Shown: piece by piece, positions 33,111 to 40,050 of the stretch
Numbering within the stretch: the first letter of the stretch is position 1
Layout of the letters: every line of letters starts with the position of its first letter
DNA from: Escherichia phage vB_EcoS_Uz-1
DNA: 64,000 nt
Sequence record: OP312987.1
Strand: one strand, 5' to 3'
The notes under the pieces: generated by a model
What the model was told of the DNA's origin: nothing
What the model saw: only the letters and a program-made list of their open reading frames with translations
The model's database searches: none
Position numbers and translations under genes: made by a program

Positions 33111-35263
33111 TTATTTGCCAGCGTAGCGTTTAGCCACGGTGACCATTACGGTTGCATTCAATTCATCATCAGGTAATGGATTAGCCAGCTTCTTATTGAA
33201 TGAGTGGACGGCTTGCTGTACTTGAGCAAAGTCCCAACCACTGTCAACCAATGCCAGTGCGTACTTAATCATTTGATTATTACGATTACCGGAGGCAATA
33301 CGACTAGCGAACCAACGCTCCAGATTATCCAACGACTGTACTTCCTTCATCTGGTTCTGGAACTGCTCGTTCTTACTAGTACGAGGAATAAAGTCACGCA
33401 CATCTAACAGATTTGCATCAAGGTTGTAATGATAAGAACCAGTCTCACAGGACATCCACTTCTTGGCTCGTTGGTTAGCTGACTCATCTGTTTCGAATGG
33501 TAGCCAAGCCATAACGTTATTCATGAACTCTTTGTATTCCTCTGTATCGAGGTGTAACTCATAGTTCATTGGAATAATCAGACGGAAGCGGTTCTCTTCA
33601 TCAGTATGACGCTTGGTGGTATAGGTCATGAACTTATATTCCTTCATCAGTTCATGGCACGTATGCAGTGGTACTCCACCATCACAGTCAATAACAATCA
33701 TGTTAAATCCTGGGATAACGTTCTCTTCAGAACGATGCCCATTCTTCATGTGATGGTTTACCCAGTGCATACCGGGAGCTTGGGTTAATACATGCAACTG
33801 GTCGAACGGTACGCGTTCACCAATGTAGTCATAAGCAAAGCTATCACTATATGCCACTATCATCTCATTGATGTCAGTCTCTTTAAGAGTTTCACCACGG
33901 AAGAACTCAATACCCTCATTGAAGGTCTTCTTAATGATGATGTGCTGTTTGTAACCCCATGCAGTAGCAAGAGTCATCATTTCATTACGAGCTGCATTAC
34001 CACTCTTATAGAATGGTAAAGACTCCAGCAAGTCAGCATGAGTTACTTCTTTACCTACGGAGGCAATGTACTTAGCCAGCTTCACATAGGCTTTTTCACG
34101 ATTAAGGATTGTCTGGAATGCTGCCCCAGATTCCTCTACAAGCAGAATTGCTTGTTTAAGGTGAGCCATCTCAATAAATGAACTCTGGTCAACAAATGCC
34201 AGTGCACCTGCCAGCTTAAGAGCTTTGAAGTAACGGTGGGAGATTTCAGCTTTACGAATCTCTTCGTGGTCAGCCATAGCTTCTGCTTGTTTCTCACAAT
34301 CAATTTTGTAAGTAATCAGGGCAATACCTACAGCATCTTCCACAATCATCTTAAAGCCAAACAAGTTTGGGTCAGCCAGACTATGGAAGTGGTTAGCCCA
34401 TTTACCAAGAGACTGTACGTTATCCTGTTTAATCAGGTTACGGTAGATTTCTTCTGGGGTTAGTGTTGCATGTGCTCGTTTGTCTAAATGCCCGATGGCA
34501 AACAAACAACGACGTGCATAACCTGTATCAAGGAAGTCATAGAACTGGTCCTCAGTCTGACCACCATCCAGCAGTTTACTCGGAGTACCAAACAACAGCA
34601 GGTTAGTTGGAGTCTTACCGTCCAGTTCTTCACCACGAACGCTTTCAGCAGTATTCTTGGTCAGCTTCTGCTTAACCTTACCCTGGTCATATAGCTCCAG
34701 AAACAGAGTTAATACATCAGAGTTAGCCAACAGATTTGAACCAATTTCATCAATTTGAAGATTGATTGAACCACATCCAGCCATTAACAGTTTATGACGT
34801 AGCTGTTTAACTGCTGGTGGAGTACCTGAGTCAAACGTAAACGGATATGCTCCGGCACGTTTATATTCTGCTTCAACTTTATCAAACTCTTCCTGCTGGT
34901 CAGTACCTTGACGTGCAGAGCGTTCGTTAGCAATCTTCCATAGACGGTCATTTGCAATGACGGGCATGGTGTCTTCCATAAAACGTTTACGGAAGCCAGT
35001 CATGAACCCGTCTTCGATGATATTACTGAGTGACCTTTACCGAAACCAGATGTAGCCAACGCTATAGCGTAGATGTTTACCGGCAGGTCACCACGGTCTT
35101 TAGTTACGATGGTTGCACCCATGCAGGATGCCATTTTAGCCAAGAAGTAGGCTACTTCGACACGGAAGAATCCCCGGTCATTGTTCTGGGTTTTATTGCA
35201 GAGCACATCTACGATTTCTTCAATCGCTGGATGGTGCACTACTCCGGTAAGGTCAATACTCAT
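33111..35263 (-). CDS. primase-like replication protein; apparent frameshift near 35028-35041
   Basis: Track ORFs 33111..35003 (630 aa) and 35000..35320, with real start at ATG 35263 overlapping the upstream stop as ATGA. The frames join at GGTAAAGGTCACTC (coding strand), consistent with a 1-nt deletion. Primase assignment is tentative (acidic DxD-type motif VIDCDGG). Confidence 0.4.
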
Positions 35264-36240
35264 GATGGAAAATATCTCTCTCTTTGTTTGCAAATGGTCG
35301 CGACAGGGCAGTATAAACAACGCTTAACCTGCCCCTCCACGACCTTGATAGCACCCTTGCCACCTTTTTCAGCCATGAAGATACGGGCAGATGCCATATC
35401 GTCAAAGTTTTTGGTACTTCTGGCTCCAGGCACATCTACCTTAGAAGCATCAGAGAAGTATTTGAATTGTGGCTCTGTTCGCCACAACTCCTCGTCAGTA
35501 CATTCAGGAATTTCCTCTTCAGGAGCATCCCAGTACTTTTCGATGAGGTGAATCTTCTCTTCCACCCAACGTTCAGTCTTCTCGACAGATAGCAGCGGAA
35601 TATCCTTATGCATAATACGATTAGCAGGATAGTTCGGGTTGCTATTAGCCATGTGTTTCATGAAGTCAGTGAAGATGTAGTTAATACGGATTACATCCTC
35701 CGTAATGATGTCGTTATGAATCCAACGGTACAAGCTGCCTTGCATCTTGTGTTCATCATCACGGGAACCGGCAACCCAGGAATAGGTTGAGGTAGACTTA
35801 AAGTCTTGCAACAGACCTTCCGTTACGATGTCGAACTTACCACCGATAGTCCAACCCTTAACTACCCTGGTTCCACGTTGTTCAATGTAGATTGGGATAA
35901 GGTCTGGGTTAGCATCAAAGTCTGCTTTGGTTGGGTTAATGACTACTGCATCAATGACTCGCTGAGGATAGCCTAGTTTCTTCAATGCAGTCTTATGCCC
36001 CAGCTTCCAGGCTTTCTCAATAGAATCATGCAAGCCAGTACCCATTGATGTGGAGACGAAATCCATAACATCAATGGATTGTTCACTGAGATCTACGCGA
36101 TGCTTCATGACGATTTGCTTAATGGGTTTAAGCAATGTAGTAGCAGACAAGTACTTAGGATTGTCTACATAATCATACTCGTCATGTAATAGCCATACAG
36201 CTAGTGCAAGACTAACGTCGTGTTTGTTGGTAAGTTTCAT
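35260..36240 (-). CDS. PD-(D/E)xK nuclease with C-terminal cysteine cluster (Cas4/RecB-like)
   Basis: GKFDIV ... LQDFK motif plus C-terminal CLYCPVATIC and an upstream Cys, compatible with a Cas4-like Fe-S nuclease. Its first 21 codons are duplicated upstream of the adjacent HNH gene. Confidence 0.5.
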   Translation of the reverse strand: MKLTNKHDVSLALAVWLLHDEYDYVDNPKYLSATTLLKPIKQIVMKHRVDLSEQSIDVMDFVSTSMGTGLHDSIEKAWKLGHKTALKKLGYPQRVIDAVVINPTKADFDANPDLIPIYIEQRGTRVVKGWTIGGKFDIVTEGLLQDFKSTSTYSWVAGSRDDEHKMQGSLYRWIHNDIITEDVIRINYIFTDFMKHMANSNPNYPANRIMHKDIPLLSVEKTERWVEEKIHLIEKYWDAPEEEIPECTDEELWRTEPQFKYFSDASKVDVPGARSTKNFDDMASARIFMAEKGGKGAIKVVEGQVKRCLYCPVATICKQRERYFPS

Positions 36241-36734
36241 AACAGTCCCAATTGCTTATTAGTTTTAGCAAACTCACCATAATGAGTTATAGCAGCTTCA
36301 TCATAGAGAACAGCAGCTTCTCTTGGGTCATCTGTAAAACCTAATGTAATTGGTTTACTGTTAACCCAAATAGTTGCTCTGTATTTACCTAAATTCTTTG
36401 AAAAGGATACCCCCTTAAATCCAGATGTGTTTGTTTTAGATAAAACAGCACTCTGGTTATTCTGCTTGTGGGTCGCTTCTCTGAGGTTATCTATCCAGTT
36501 GTGATGGCGAATATTGTCCTTATGGTCAATCCTATCCGTAGGCCATACACCGTGCACATAGAACCATGCAAGGATATGCCCATAGTACAACACACTATCT
36601 ACACGGAGTTGAACGTAACCACTCTTCATTAGGTAACCAGATACCTTTCCGGTATTCCTACGAGTAAAAATCCCGGAAATAGGGTCATAACTAACAAGCT
36701 GTAAAAGCCTGTCATGGGCAATCCTCTGTTTCAT
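36237..36734 (-). CDS. HNH homing endonuclease with AP2 DNA-binding domain (intact)
   Basis: HNH_3-type core (HGVWPTDRIDHKDNIRHHNWIDNL) and AP2-like C-terminus (SGFKGVSFSKNLGKYRATIW ... AAVLYDEAA). 165 aa, free-standing between replication genes. Confidence 0.7.
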   Translation of the reverse strand: MKQRIAHDRLLQLVSYDPISGIFTRRNTGKVSGYLMKSGYVQLRVDSVLYYGHILAWFYVHGVWPTDRIDHKDNIRHHNWIDNLREATHKQNNQSAVLSKTNTSGFKGVSFSKNLGKYRATIWVNSKPITLGFTDDPREAAVLYDEAAITHYGEFAKTNKQLGLL

Positions 36735-36740
36735 AATTAG

Positions 36741-36803
36741 TTACTCGTCATGCAATAGCCATACAGCCAGGGCCAGTGATACATCATGGTTGTTGGTTAT
36801 CTT
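36741..36803 (-). repeat. recoded duplicate of the first 21 codons of the nuclease gene, ending in a stop, directly upstream of the HNH gene
   Basis: 36741..36803 encodes MKITNNHDVSLALAVWLLHDE then stop; 36177..36239 encodes MKLTNKHDVSLALAVWLLHDE as the true gene start. About 76 percent nucleotide identity but 19 of 21 amino acids identical. Confidence 0.6.
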
Positions 36804-36805
36804 CA

Positions 36806-37282
36806 TTAGTAAGTAATCCTGTATCTGTGAACCCAGTTCCACTTAATTTCACTTAGCTGATTGAAGTTATACGAGTAAATTTCATCTCGTTCATCTTTAT
36901 AAACAATCTCAATGAATGAAAATTCTTTAGTGAAGTGAGGTTTACCATTGTTTGTATGGTGCCAATAACTACCAACGGTATTTACATTCGTAGCAGGATC
37001 CGGAAATAACTCACTAGCTAACTTCTCTTTAGCGAGAATACGATTAGCGTAATGAACCAGCTTCTCAGCATCATACACCGAAGAGTTTCCTGGTTTACCA
37101 TTACCCATACGGGCAGCAGCATTTCGCCATAGAGCCTTAAAGGCACAACCTTCATCGAAGGTCATGCCCAGTGCCTGGATAATATCCTCACACTCTGCTT
37201 GGTATGGCTCTTGCTCTTTCCGTTGGGGGTTCTTAACTGGTACTACATACCAGTTATTCAATCCACCGGAGAGCTTAGTCAT
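36806..37282 (-). CDS. hypothetical protein
   Basis: 158-aa ORF between the DNA polymerase region and the HNH insertion. Confidence 0.45.
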   Translation of the reverse strand: MTKLSGGLNNWYVVPVKNPQRKEQEPYQAECEDIIQALGMTFDEGCAFKALWRNAAARMGNGKPGNSSVYDAEKLVHYANRILAKEKLASELFPDPATNVNTVGSYWHHTNNGKPHFTKEFSFIEIVYKDERDEIYSYNFNQLSEIKWNWVHRYRITY

Positions 37283-37587
37283 TATTCCCCCTTGGGAATC
37301 ATGTTTGCCTGGAACTCTGGTTCAGACATCAGACCCAGGTTGTTAATGGACAGATAAACAATGTCTTTCAAATCAACCGAAGTGTCGAAACGCTGGTCCA
37401 GACTAATTTTAAGAGAGTGATTGGCACGGGCCAAATCTTTATAGGTCACATGAGGCTCGTCAGTGAGCAGCATTGTGTTCATAGTAAGCAGGGAGCCATC
37501 ATCAGCTTTGGGAAGCTGGAAGATTACCTGTGCTGCTACCATCCAATGATATTTTCTGACAACGGTTTCTTTAGTACTTTTAGTCAT
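37282..37587 (-). CDS. hypothetical protein
   Basis: 101-aa ORF directly downstream of the DNA polymerase gene. Confidence 0.4.
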   Translation of the reverse strand: MTKSTKETVVRKYHWMVAAQVIFQLPKADDGSLLTMNTMLLTDEPHVTYKDLARANHSLKISLDQRFDTSVDLKDIVYLSINNLGLMSEPEFQANMIPKGE

Positions 37588-40050
37588 GCGAATGCCTTTT
37601 GAATTATTTGATGAACTTCATCTGGGGTAGCGTGATTTGGAATTTCAATCTCGTTAGCCCACGTTGGATAAAACAAGGATAGTTCCCCACCCAAACCAAC
37701 TTCTGGATGAGCAATATCAGGATGGTCTTGCCAGTTAACGGCTTCAACCAAGTGCTTGTTCGTATACTGTAAGGTATCCATGTTGTCACGGATCATGAAG
37801 TATTGGGCATCATGAATGTGAATACAAGGACGGATATCTAACCTGAACTCACTGGTTCTGACTTTACGCATAAACTCTGAGCCAGCACGGTTATTAAGTA
37901 GACACCAGCTTTGACCTAATGCATTACCAGCAGTTCTGCCTTCAGCTTCTGCTTCATACGGAGTCTTACATGTCCCACGTAATACCTGAGCCAGTAAAGG
38001 AGTACGCACTCTTAAACCAAATGCAGCAGTTACATAACCAGTCTTAGCAGCTTCGTCTAGCTTAGCCTGAACCCACAAATCACTAACTACATAGAGATCG
38101 TGATAACGTTTCTCCGTAGTTTTAGCCTTCTCTTCGGAGAAGCCACAGTTTTCATTAAGCCCATGTAAGTACCACCATAGGTAAGCAGGAAGGTTGGAGC
38201 CTTCGAGTCACTACGTAATGATTTGTACTTATGCTGAATGGAATTAATGGATTCTACTGTGTCTTCTATGTCTGGCATCTGCTCACCAAAATAAGCATAT
38301 GCACGGAGACTGTGACCATCATAGCCATCGGTATATACCTTAAGCTTCTGCGGGTCTTTAGTAGTTAAAGCTGAGATACGGTCTTCAAGGCTTGCAAAGT
38401 CCAGTCCACAAAATATCCAACCTGGTGGTGCTTCGAAGCATTTCTTAATCTTCTTGGCGTATTTGGAACCACTGGGGATGGTCTGTAGATTAGGCTCGGA
38501 CGCTGAGAGACGTCCTGATACTGTGCCTCCAAATTGAGGTTACCGAACAGGTAGTGCCATCCATCTGGTCCAGGTTGTGCATTACGGAAAGCTGGGATGA
38601 ATGAAGTGATGATCTTATCCACCAGCTTATAGTCGATAAGTGCATTGAGCAGTTCCTTAACATCTTCACTCTGCGTATGTGTACGCAGTGCTTTAATAGT
38701 GTCACCGTCAGTAGCAGGTTGCTTGCTCTTAGTAAGACCAAGAACCGGTAAGCCGATGTAGTCAAATAACAATTTCTGTAATTGTGGACCAGAGTTAGGA
38801 TTAAACTCTATGTCACAATCAGCCAACGTTACCTGCTTCTTCTTAAGCTTGGCATTCTTATCGTCTACCCATTCCTGACGAAGCATCAGGGTGAAGTTCT
38901 TCATGAGCTTAGACTCACGAATAGTTTTCAGAGCCTGGTTCCTGTCAGTTTCCATTTCTTCAGCTACTTGGTTAACGGTTTCCATATTCATGGGCATACC
39001 GGTTAACTGCATCTGAATAATGTCTTCGCAGGCTGGTTTAAAGATGTTGTTATAAACATCTAGTTGGTTATCAGCTACCAGGGTATCCCAGTGTTTCTCG
39101 TAGGTGTACCAGGTACACAAACCATCAATAAGGTTGTATCGTAACAGTTGCTCATTAGGAATGAGACGAATGTCTTTAATATCATCCTGAGCATAGTTAC
39201 CAGCATACTCCTGAGCCTGCTCTTTTAGACTAAGGTGATTACCAGCACAACTGTTAGTAGCTAAATAAGTAATTAATTTAGTACAGTCCCAGTTACGCAG
39301 CATGATGTCCATGCCATGCAGTAAGCCTCCAGTATCAATCAGGTTATCCATGAATAACTGATAAATAAGTATGTACACATCATAACTAATGTTGTGATAC
39401 ATCTGCCGTTGGGTGTACTTAATGAAGAACTCACGGAGAAGATTTCGAACAATATCATTACGATTGATTCTCCCATAAGGTGCTTCAGTAGCTCCCCTAA
39501 TTGGCTCGTAATCCACATTAAAGGCTATGCCCTGTGTCTTACTCCAACAGAACGTAATTGTTCCTATACCTGCGTTATAGTGCTTTAAACCGAATGCCTC
39601 GATGTCTATAGCCAGAGGCTTATTCATCTCAAGCAACTGGTCTAGCCAGGCTTTAATCTTTTCTGGAGTATCTGGATAGGCTTCAAACTCAATGATTCCC
39701 TGACCTGGTTCAGCATACTGCCCACGTATGTGGTTTAGTAATGCATCCATACCCTGAGCAATTTTGGCTCTCACTACAGGTGGGTCATAAAAGACCTGTC
39801 TGTAACTAGGCGTATAGATAACTTTCTGTTTACCCCATACTGAATCACAAACATAGCCGAGATTAGCCTCTGCTTTAGCCTCTTTAGTCAGTATTTTGAA
39901 GTAATCAGAATCGGTGCAGATAATGTACTGGGTCTCTGCATCATCCAGTACTTGCTGCAATTCCTGCTTTATGAACTCCTTAATCTCTCTTGCTGGGGTC
40001 TTCTTCTTGCCCGGAGCAGAGTGAAGTTCAATAAAGATGAAGTCTTCCAT
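37584..40050 (-). CDS. DNA polymerase, family A, with 3'-5' exonuclease domain; at least two apparent frameshifts
   Basis: Fragments 38365..40050, 38087..38278 and 37584..38078. Exo motif LAIDIEAF; FNPNSGPQLQKLLF; motif A (GLDFASLEDRISA) readable only in a shifted frame after a break near 38531-38546; motif B (KAPTFLLTYGG); motif C (IHDAQYF). Second break at an A-run (ATGAAAACTGTGG) near 38143-38155. Confidence 0.7.

What the first reader, a model, noticed from the sequence alone, without database searches (positions are those of the whole stretch)
36177..36806. HNH homing endonuclease inserted with a recoded duplicate of the neighbouring nuclease gene's first 21 codons
Immediately upstream of the intact HNH-AP2 gene (36237-36734) lies a 21-codon ORF ending in a stop (36741-36803) that encodes MKITNNHDVSLALAVWLLHDE. 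The nuclease gene downstream of the HNH (start 36240) begins MKLTNKHDVSLALAVWLLHDE. The two 63-nt segments are only about 76 percent identical in DNA yet 19 of 21 residues match, so the differences are almost all synonymous. This looks like the footprint of a homing or insertion event in which the target gene's 5' end was duplicated and the copies diverged under coding constraint, or a target site recoded to resist cleavage.
Basis: seen in the sequence. Interest (0 to 1): 0.6.

Follow-up and report, generated by a model that had tools for sequence, protein, structure and literature searches.

The report
Homing endonuclease cassette with replacement gene start
A selfish HNH endonuclease gene entered the start of a G7C-like coliphage's exonuclease gene carrying its own foreign copy of that gene's first 21 codons, which left the phage's original 21 codons behind as a dead-end mini-ORF; relatives show the element both spreading and being lost, so this is a clear natural example of a known process, not a new kind of system.

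Summary
A 65-nt direct repeat (36176-36240 and 36742-36806, minus strand, 78% identical) flanks an intact HNH gene (36237-36734), and the two 21-codon copies match at 19 of 21 residues.

Comparison with 25 or more related G7C-like (Gamaleyavirus) genomes changes the interpretation:
- The upstream mini-ORF (copy A) is the phage's own original gp42 start. It is about 95% identical to HEG-less alleles and has the same TAATG overlap with gp41.
- The copy now in use (copy B) arrived with the endonuclease gene (HEG). In the other eight HEG+ genomes it is only 65-68% identical to native over exactly 21 codons, and the sequence is native-like from codon 22.
- HEG relatives at about 56% identity in two distant N4-like phages sit in the same place, with their stop overlapping the gp42 start and no remnant upstream. 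The HEG-gp42 start linkage is therefore ancestral.

The best model is a single one-sided (illegitimate on the left, homologous on the right) break-repair event at codon 21/22. The window's copy B is a secondary recombinant: B-type at nt 1-39 and native at nt 51-63. HEG-less "scar" alleles with the reciprocal pattern exist in at least three independent forms. Cleavage activity and the target site are untested. This is a new variant of a known kind, of moderate interest.

The parts
36806..37282 (-). gp41 homologue (158 aa). Its TAA stop shares one base with the ATG of copy A (TAATG).
   Evidence: HEG-less relatives have the same one-base overlap (TAATG/TGATG) with the true gp42 start.
36741..36806 (-). 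Copy A: the native first 21 codons of gp42, left as a 21-codon mini-ORF (MKITNNHDVSLALAVWLLHDE) closed by a TAA at the insertion joint.
   Evidence: About 95% identical to the gp42 start of 10 HEG-less genomes. Same position relative to gp41. Present in 9/9 HEG+ genomes.
36735..36740 (-). 6-nt spacer (CTAATT) between the mini-ORF stop and the HEG ATG. Together with the TAA it forms the left joint of the cassette.
   Evidence: Joint GAG|TAACTAATT|ATG is identical in 7/9 HEG+ genomes. The variant GGG TAA CTAGTT ATG (3-nt shorter) occurs in EC1-UPM and 24-32N.
36237..36734 (-). Free-standing HNH (HNH_3 plus weak AP2-like) homing endonuclease gene, equivalent to G7C gp41.1. Its TGA overlaps the gp42 ATG (ATGA).
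   Evidence: Pfam. A marginal AP2 match is the only PDB hit. Intact in 9/9 genomes with pN/pS 0.04-0.12. Absent from most relatives. No Rfam intron match. No promoter or terminator signal above chance.
36202..36240 (-). Copy B, nt 1-39 (codons 1-13): the cassette-borne, foreign version of the gp42 start. All 10 diagnostic sites here are B-type.
   Evidence: Identical to Bp4, PD38 and ECBP1 here.
36191..36201 (-). Crossover interval (nt 40-50, GCTGTATGGCT, shared by the A and B types), where the window switches from cassette-type to native-type sequence.
36178..36190 (-). Copy B, nt 51-63 (codons 17-21): native-type in the window only (LLHDE). The other 8 HEG+ genomes have CTTGTWACRGATGAT (LVTDD).
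   Evidence: No other phage record has this arrangement next to the HEG.
35260..36240 (-). gp42 homologue, a PD-(D/E)XK-type exonuclease (326 aa). This is the functional gene, which uses copy B as its start.
   Evidence: source names: exonuclease, PD-(D/E)XK endonuclease-like. From 36193 to about 36074 the body is identical to the HEG-less phage VTCC322 rather than to Bp4.

Best explanation
This is a free-standing HNH homing-endonuclease cassette whose family lives immediately upstream of the N4 gp42-type exonuclease gene. It entered the G7C-like (Gamaleyavirus) lineage once, by repair of a break at about codon 21/22 of gp42. The repair was homologous on the right (in gp42) and illegitimate on the left. 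The copied tract ran from donor codon 21 back through the donor's own first 21 codons (copy B), the HEG and a few spacer bases. It was then joined at a TA microhomology to the recipient's broken end. The recipient's original 21 codons (copy A) were stranded as a mini-ORF ending in a TAA at the joint, and gp42 now reads from copy B. All four reading frames are chained: gp41 TAATG A ... TAA-6 nt-ATG HEG ... ATGA gp42. The HEG has no promoter of its own and probably rides on translational coupling. The cassette has since spread among G7C-like phages by recombination or homing. It has also been lost repeatedly by recombination between copy B and copy A (or a native allele), which leaves HEG-less scar alleles. 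The window's copy B is the reciprocal recombinant class. Shown: which copy is native, the step in divergence, the single shared joint, the ancestral HEG-gp42 linkage, purifying selection on the HEG, and the recombinant and scar alleles. Inferred: the break position, the one-sided repair route, translational coupling, homing activity and immunity.
For: (1) HEG-less genomes start gp42 with the A-type sequence at the same overlap with gp41. (2) Step function: full copy B is 65-68% identical to native codons 1-21, while HEG-less alleles are 94.5% identical to each other there. Codons 22-42 are 84-95% identical, later segments 93-96%, and copy A about 95%. (3) 16 fixed diagnostic sites separate the B and native types. 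(4) All nine HEG+ genomes share one left joint, and B subtypes co-vary with HEG subtypes. (5) A-B synonymous differences are saturated (pS 0.8-1.0), while the HEG's own maximum is pS 0.33. The A/B divergence therefore predates the cassette's radiation. (6) HEG relatives at 56-57% identity in two distant N4-like contigs (77 kb and 71 kb) sit in a true intergenic spacer with their stop overlapping the gp42 start by 4 nt. They have no A remnant and no repeat. (7) The repeat extends 2 nt (TA) past codon 21, which is microhomology at the joint. (8) The window is identical to Bp4/PD38/ECBP1 from 37024 to about 36194 and then switches to a VTCC322-like sequence. (9) HEG-less scar alleles come in three forms: L020 (NNNNNNNN-BBBBBBBB), L019/L021, and NAN33P5/K57alpha1.2, which have the G7C-subtype B. 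In a sample of the gp42 cluster, 2 of 15 members are scar-type. (10) One-sided illegitimate DSB repair at microhomology is an established route for ectopic invasion by T4 introns and HEGs (PMC2988022).
Against: No donor lineage with a native B-type gp42 start was found. Scans of IMG/VR, JGI metagenomes and GTDB genomes gave only G7C and ECBP1 or nothing. None of the 120 best gp42 homologues outside this clade begins MKLT..VTDD. Endonuclease activity and the cut site are untested. The window's copy B is native from nt 51 onward yet sits beside an intact HEG. This is awkward if the target lies wholly in codons 14-24. The crossover points in the window (at or before nt 51) and the original joint (nt 63-65) do not point to one exact cut position. 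Three gp42 alleles that deviate at the HDE motif had no HEG upstream (0/3), so there is no independent support for the target location.
Confidence: 0.7

Rival explanations
1. Local duplication then divergence. The insertion duplicated the recipient's own 63 nt. The in-use copy then diverged rapidly at synonymous sites under selection to escape cleavage or to suppress repeat-mediated deletion.
For: Differences are mostly synonymous. Diverged repeats would stabilise the HEG against the A x B deletion that demonstrably occurs. No donor was found.
Against: Copy B is saturated at synonymous sites (pS 0.8-1.0), while the HEG itself reaches pS 0.33 at most across the same genomes. No intermediate stages exist among nine genomes. 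Distant relatives already have the HEG-stop/gp42-start overlap without a remnant. Copy B also carries 4-5 amino-acid changes in a strongly conserved motif.
Confidence: 0.12
2. The mini-ORF (copy A) is not just debris. It is retained because translating it delivers ribosomes from gp41 to the HEG start 6 nt after its stop, acting as a translational-coupling leader. This is compatible with the main explanation.
For: It is open and in frame in 9/9 genomes, with a stop 6 nt before the HEG ATG, even in the joint variant with a 3-nt deletion. It keeps gp42's original TAATG coupling. It has no own promoter.
Against: Every A polymorphism is shared with functional native alleles, so no constraint on copy A itself can be shown. 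The peptide end differs (HDE* against HG*) in two genomes. Retention may simply reflect homology-driven spread of the whole unit.
Confidence: 0.25
3. The arrangement, or at least the window's chimeric copy B, is an assembly or sequencing artefact.
For: The window contains four single-base homopolymer deletions that break the polymerase and primase genes, so read quality is imperfect. The chimeric copy B is unique to the window.
Against: The A-HEG-B architecture is present in eight independently sequenced phages. The chimeric copy B differs by clustered substitutions, not indels. The switch lies in only 11-14 nt of identity, too short for a k-mer assembler to jump. Reciprocal scar alleles exist in independent genomes.
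Confidence: 0.03

Closest known systems
[quoted passage not shown]
   Same: The mobile endonuclease element is acquired with homology on one side only. The other junction forms at microhomology, which allows invasion of an ectopic or poorly homologous site. Here the right side is homologous, the left joint has a 2-nt TA, and the sequence between the cut and the element is duplicated.
   Different: The T4 work used engineered plasmid-phage crosses with intron-borne endonucleases. This is a natural, fixed, free-standing HNH gene in Schitoviridae, and the duplicated piece restores the gene's start. The primary paper was not available to me, so whether it reports the same duplication geometry is unchecked.
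Aeromonas phage Aeh1 mobE insertion splitting nrdA ('genes in pieces', Friedrich et al. 2007, cited in PMC2988022)
   Same: A free-standing HNH HEG lands inside the coding region of a replication or nucleotide-metabolism gene without an intron or intein, and gene function survives.
   Different: In Aeh1 both fragments are needed and reassemble as protein. Here the upstream fragment is redundant, because the cassette supplies a complete replacement N-terminus.
T4 mobA plus the gene 60 50-nt bypass cassette (Bonocora et al. 2011; recalled from memory, not checked here)
   Same: A HEG travels with adjacent sequence that alters the target region of the host gene while preserving its product.
   Different: There is no translational bypass here. 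The accompanying sequence is a divergent copy of the gene's first 21 codons.
Typical intergenic free-standing phage HEGs (T4 seg/mob genes; HNH genes of ICP1, PMC10448857)
   Same: Presence/absence polymorphism at a fixed site between conserved genes, mosaic flanks, and an HNH catalytic domain with a separate DNA-binding domain. L022 and L023 show this ordinary form for the same HEG family.
   Different: The Gamaleyavirus copy lies 63 nt inside the target gene and is flanked by a diverged direct repeat of coding sequence.

Membership tests
Free-standing HNH homing endonuclease gene | HNH catalytic domain | tested here: met
   Pfam HNH_3, E=2.8e-9, 36.9 bits against a cut-off of 24.8, residues 50-94.
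Free-standing HNH homing endonuclease gene | Separate sequence-specific DNA-binding domain (here AP2-like) | tested here: inconclusive
   Pfam AP2 19.2 bits, below the cut-off of 33.3. Marginal PDB match to the plant AP2 protein WRI1, E=0.0048. Many relatives carry a precomputed PF00847 annotation.
Free-standing HNH homing endonuclease gene | Presence/absence polymorphism at one fixed site among close relatives | tested here: met
   9 HEG+ genomes, against 12 HEG-less native isolate genomes plus scar-bearing genomes, all at the gp41/gp42 junction.
Free-standing HNH homing endonuclease gene | Not inside a self-splicing intron or intein | tested here: met
   Separate ORF with its own start and stop between ORFs. 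No Rfam match at E<=1 in 35000-38500.
Free-standing HNH homing endonuclease gene | Mosaic or co-converted flanks with recombination breakpoints next to the element | tested here: met
   Window is identical to Bp4 through the HEG and then switches inside copy B. Scar alleles exist. The HEG is found on both gp41 allele classes.
Free-standing HNH homing endonuclease gene | Site-specific cleavage or nicking of the HEG-less allele, and super-Mendelian inheritance | not testable with these tools
   Needs enzyme assays and phage crosses.
Genes-in-pieces HEG insertion (Aeh1 nrdA/mobE type) | Host gene split into two fragments that are both required | tested here: not met
   gp42 downstream of the HEG is full length (326 aa) and collinear with HEG-less gp42 from residue 1. 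The upstream 21 codons are redundant.
Transposon-type target-site duplication | Short, initially identical direct repeats generated from the target by staggered cleavage | tested here: not met
   The repeat is 63-65 nt, and in 8/9 genomes it is only 63-68% identical (36-37/57 to 42-43/63 nt). One copy is native-like and the other foreign. No transposase is present.

The most novel reading that the evidence does not exclude
The HEG and the 21 foreign codons form a self-sufficient mobile unit. By carrying a divergent replacement for the part of the essential gene that holds its own target, the element can sit inside a coding region without an intron or intein. It would immunise its carrier and exploit the stranded native start as a translational on-ramp. 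This would be a third general strategy for HEGs to live inside genes, one that may be widespread but goes unannotated because the remnants are tiny ORFs.
Probability: 0.25. Interest if true: 0.6.

Novelty: new variant of a known kind. Interest (0 to 1): 0.42.

Why it matters
This is a natural case that preserves several stages of a homing-endonuclease life cycle within one small phage genus:
- an ancestral intergenic form in distant relatives;
- an illegitimate invasion into a coding region, rescued by a donor-derived gene start;
- spread onto different genetic backgrounds;
- repeated loss that leaves diagnostic scar alleles.

It gives a concrete substrate set for mapping the enzyme's target and immunity determinants: the native allele, the A-joint, full copy B, the window's chimeric copy B and three scar types. 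It also matters for annotation. The 21-codon ORF is unannotated in all the annotated HEG+ records retrieved, and gp42 N-terminal variants (LVTDD) in HEG-less phages are relics of the element rather than ordinary polymorphism. It does not reveal a new class of system.

Tried and rejected
1. Donor search. IMG/VR (protein patterns and a B-type DNA pattern) returned only G7C and ECBP1. The B-core pattern had no match in JGI metagenomes or GTDB genomes. None of the 120 best gp42 homologues outside the clade has a B-type start.
2. Prediction that gp42 alleles deviating from the conserved HDE motif carry an HEG upstream. The result was 0 of 3 (P0082, P0076, P0117), so the idea was dropped as support for the target location.
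3. Search for the same duplicate-and-replace architecture at the second HEG site (PhAPEC5-type HNH between gp42 and gp43) and in L022/L023. No repeat was found.
4. Own promoter or terminator for the HEG: nothing above the shuffled expectation.
5. Intron or structured RNA: no Rfam match.
6. Solved structure of a close relative: none, only a marginal AP2 match.
7. Literature. G7C-group papers mention HEG module swaps but not this duplication. Parker et al. 1999 is not held.
It was replaced by tblastn, which led to NAN33P5 and K57alpha1.2.
9. Pure chance and assembly artefact were both rejected.
Full report
OBSERVATION

The genes in this part of the window run on the minus strand, in this order:
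- gp41 (36806-37282).
- A 21-codon ORF encoding MKITNNHDVSLALAVWLLHDE. Its ATG is at 36806-36804 and shares one base with the gp41 stop (TAATG). Its TAA is at 36743-36741.
- A 6-nt spacer (CTAATT).
- A 165-aa HNH gene (36237-36734).
- gp42 (35260-36240). Its ATG overlaps the HNH stop (ATGA), and it begins MKLTNKHDVSLALAVWLLHDE.

Otherwise the description is accurate.

The two 63-nt copies share 49/63 nt and 19/21 residues, and 9 of the 11 differing codons are synonymous. The probability of this by chance is about 7e-15. The repeat finder independently reports a 65-nt direct repeat (36176-36240 and 36742-36806, 78% identical, spacing 566), which extends 2 nt (TA) beyond codon 21.

On the protein side, the HNH product matches Pfam HNH_3 above its cut-off and AP2 below its cut-off. 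gp42 gives a weak PD-(D/E)XK match and is named exonuclease in public records.

WHICH COPY IS THE ORIGINAL

The window is a G7C-like coliphage (Gamaleyavirus, Schitoviridae). I retrieved the locus from eight other HEG+ phages: Bp4, PD38, ECBP1, PW8, G7C, Mimir124, EC1-UPM and 24-32N. I also retrieved it from twelve HEG-less isolates and several metagenomic contigs.

In every HEG-less genome with a native allele, gp42 starts with the upstream (A-type) sequence, at the same one-base overlap with the gp41 stop. It then continues ...GAG TAT GAT TAC. Copy A is therefore the phage's own gp42 start, cut off after codon 21. The copy in use (B) is the newcomer.

STEP IN DIVERGENCE

In the other eight HEG+ genomes copy B ends CTTGTWACRGATGAT (LVTDD) rather than CTATTRCATGAYGAR (LLHDE).

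| Segment compared with HEG-less alleles | Identity |
|---|---|
| Full copy B against native codons 1-21 | 65-68% |
| HEG-less alleles against each other, codons 1-21 | 94.5% |
| HEG+ gp42, codons 22-42 | 84-95% |
| HEG+ gp42, later segments | 93-96% |
| Copy A against native | about 95% |

Sixteen positions are fixed differences between the B and native types.

Between A and B the proportion of synonymous differences is 0.8-1.0, which is saturation. The HEG itself reaches at most pS 0.33 across the same genomes, with pN/pS of 0.04-0.12 and an intact ORF in 9/9. The A/B divergence therefore predates the cassette's radiation within the genus. This argues against a local duplication that drifted apart.

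All HEG+ genomes share one left joint, GAG|TAACTAATT|ATG. EC1-UPM and 24-32N have a variant that is 3 nt shorter. B subtypes co-vary with HEG subtypes. This fits a single origin for a unit made of spacer, HEG and copy B.

ANCESTRAL ARRANGEMENT

Outside this clade the nearest HEG relatives (P0122 and P0124, 56-57% identity) lie on contigs of 77 kb and 71 kb from distant N4-like phages, whose gp42 is about 50% identical. In both, the HEG sits in a real intergenic spacer between the gp41-region gene and gp42. Its stop overlaps the gp42 ATG by 4 nt. There is no remnant of a gp42 start upstream and no repeat.

The tight linkage between the HEG stop and the gp42 start is therefore a family trait. 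The Gamaleyavirus cassette looks like that unit, cut out together with 21 donor codons.

MECHANISM (INFERRED)

The geometry has five features:
- Native codons 1-21 are kept on the left.
- A TAA and a few foreign bases form the joint.
- The HEG follows.
- Donor codons 1-21 follow the HEG.
- Native sequence resumes at codon 22.

This is what one-sided repair of a break at about codon 21/22 would produce. The right end finds homology in the donor's gp42. Synthesis copies leftward through donor codons 21-1 and the HEG. The product is then joined to the unresected left end at a TA microhomology.

One-sided, illegitimate double-strand-break repair at microhomologies is an established route for ectopic acquisition of T4 endonuclease-bearing introns (review PMC2988022). 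The primary paper was not available.

The break site falls in the most conserved part of the gp42 family...LAVWL[LVM][HYF]DEYDY. That is the kind of sequence homing endonucleases usually target. The target, the cleavage and the immunity are all untested.

EXPRESSION (INFERRED)

No promoter-like or terminator-like site above the shuffled expectation lies near the HEG, and there is no intron or other Rfam family. The four ORFs are chained by overlaps or a 6-nt gap. Translation of the stranded mini-ORF may therefore feed ribosomes to the HEG start. The mini-ORF is open in 9/9 genomes. However, its polymorphisms are all shared with functional native alleles, so no constraint on it can be demonstrated.

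SPREAD, LOSS AND THE WINDOW'S OWN PECULIARITY

The window has no differences from Bp4, PD38 or ECBP1 from 37024 to about 36194. That stretch covers the 3' half of gp41, copy A, the HEG and copy B nt 1-39. The window then switches within the 11-nt stretch GCTGTATGGCT to native-type sequence, which is identical to the HEG-less phage VTCC322 for the next 120 nt or so. Its diagnostic pattern is BBBBBBBBBB-NNNNNN. No other record in the phage collection has this arrangement.

The reciprocal class also exists, as HEG-less gp42 alleles with a native 5' part and a B-type 3' part:

| Allele | Pattern or crossover | B subtype |
|---|---|---|
| L020 | NNNNNNNN-BBBBBBBB | Bp4 |
| L019 / L021 | switch between nt 9 and 27 | Bp4 |
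| NAN33P5 and K57alpha1.2 (complete isolate genomes) | NNN-BBBBBBBBBBBBB | G7C |

They represent at least three independent events. In a sample of 15 sequences from the 594-member gp42 cluster, 12 were native, 2 were scar-type and 1 was full B-type.

These alleles are what recombination between copy B and copy A, or between copy B and a native allele, would leave after deleting or failing to transfer the HEG. The HEG also occurs on both deeply divergent allele classes of the gp41 3' half. Together this documents gain, movement between backgrounds, and loss.

WHAT DOES NOT FIT OR REMAINS OPEN

- No donor lineage was found.
- The window carries an intact HEG next to a gp42 that is native from nt 51 onward. 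If immunity is sequence-based, the recognition site would have to include bases at or before nt 39 as well as bases beyond codon 21, which are disrupted in copy A. That implies a site of 28 bp or more. Alternatively, self-cleavage is tolerated.
- The crossover positions and the original joint do not define one exact cut site.
- A test of the idea that deviant HDE-motif alleles mark HEG presence gave 0 of 3.

QUALITY NOTE

Relative to G7C, the window has four single-base deletions in homopolymer runs that break the DNA polymerase (three) and the primase (one). These are probably sequencing errors. The chimeric copy B is a cluster of substitutions across a junction with only 11-14 nt of identity. 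It has reciprocal counterparts in independent genomes, so it is unlikely to be an artefact, although resequencing would settle the point.

COMPARISON AND VERDICT

Functionally this is a free-standing HNH homing endonuclease. The HNH domain, the fixed-site presence/absence polymorphism, the absence of an intron or intein, and the mosaic flanks were tested and met. The DNA-binding domain is inconclusive, and cleavage is untestable here.

It differs from the usual intergenic HEG because it lies 63 nt inside its neighbour's coding region. It differs from the Aeh1 nrdA/mobE genes-in-pieces case because the upstream fragment is redundant. It is not a transposon-style target-site duplication.

I found no description of the remnant or of the imported gene start in the G7C-group literature I could search. 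I rate it a new variant of a known kind, with moderate interest.

Noticed in passing
window ~40080, ~38531, ~38153 (DNA polymerase gp39) and ~35025 (primase gp43): There are four single-base deletions relative to G7C, all in homopolymer runs (AAAA->AAA, GGG->GG, AAAAA->AAAA, AAA->AA). They split the polymerase into three ORFs and the primase into two. Bp4 is annotated with similarly split polymerase and primase genes. They are most likely homopolymer sequencing errors, not biology.
   Followed up: partly
window 36794-37024 (3' half of gp41): Among G7C-like phages the 3' half of gp41 occurs as deeply divergent allele classes (15-34 differences per 60 nt), with a sharp boundary near 37025. The 5' half is about 95% conserved. 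HEG+ and HEG-less genomes occur in both classes. A third, short gp41 form (94 aa, overlapping gp42 by 23 nt) exists in HK2, E20, Bas96 and L019.
   Followed up: partly
L005 (PhAPEC5) 1763-2278; L020 3478-3993; L024/L025 3001-3516; L010 (EC1-UPM) from 2132: A second HNH gene, 47-50% identical to this HEG, occupies a different site in some relatives. It lies between gp42 and the primase gp43 and overlaps both neighbours by 4 nt, with no duplication of flanking coding sequence. The window lacks it.
   Followed up: partly
L019 550-1227; L023 941-1537; L024 125-667; L069 440-973: Further HNH genes (with NUMOD1, NUMOD4 or I-HmuI-like domains) interrupt the DNA polymerase gene in several relatives. 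PhAPEC5 is annotated as having an intron there. The gp39-gp43 replication module is a hotspot for homing endonucleases in N4-like phages.
   Followed up: no
L074 (Klebsiella phage vB_Kpl_K57alpha1.2, OY979416.1 64365-66742): The record annotates portal, spanin, endolysin and holin pseudogenes on the opposite strand over what is clearly the gp41-gp42-primase region. This suggests that the annotation is out of register with the sequence.
   Followed up: no
L022 and L023, gp42 residues 17-21: The two distant phages that carry a related HEG upstream of gp42 have unusual residues at the conserved LLHDE motif (LVRDT, LVDDS), as does the Gamaleyavirus copy B (LVTDD). This hints at target-site immunity. 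However, three other deviant alleles had no HEG upstream, so the association is unproven.
   Followed up: partly
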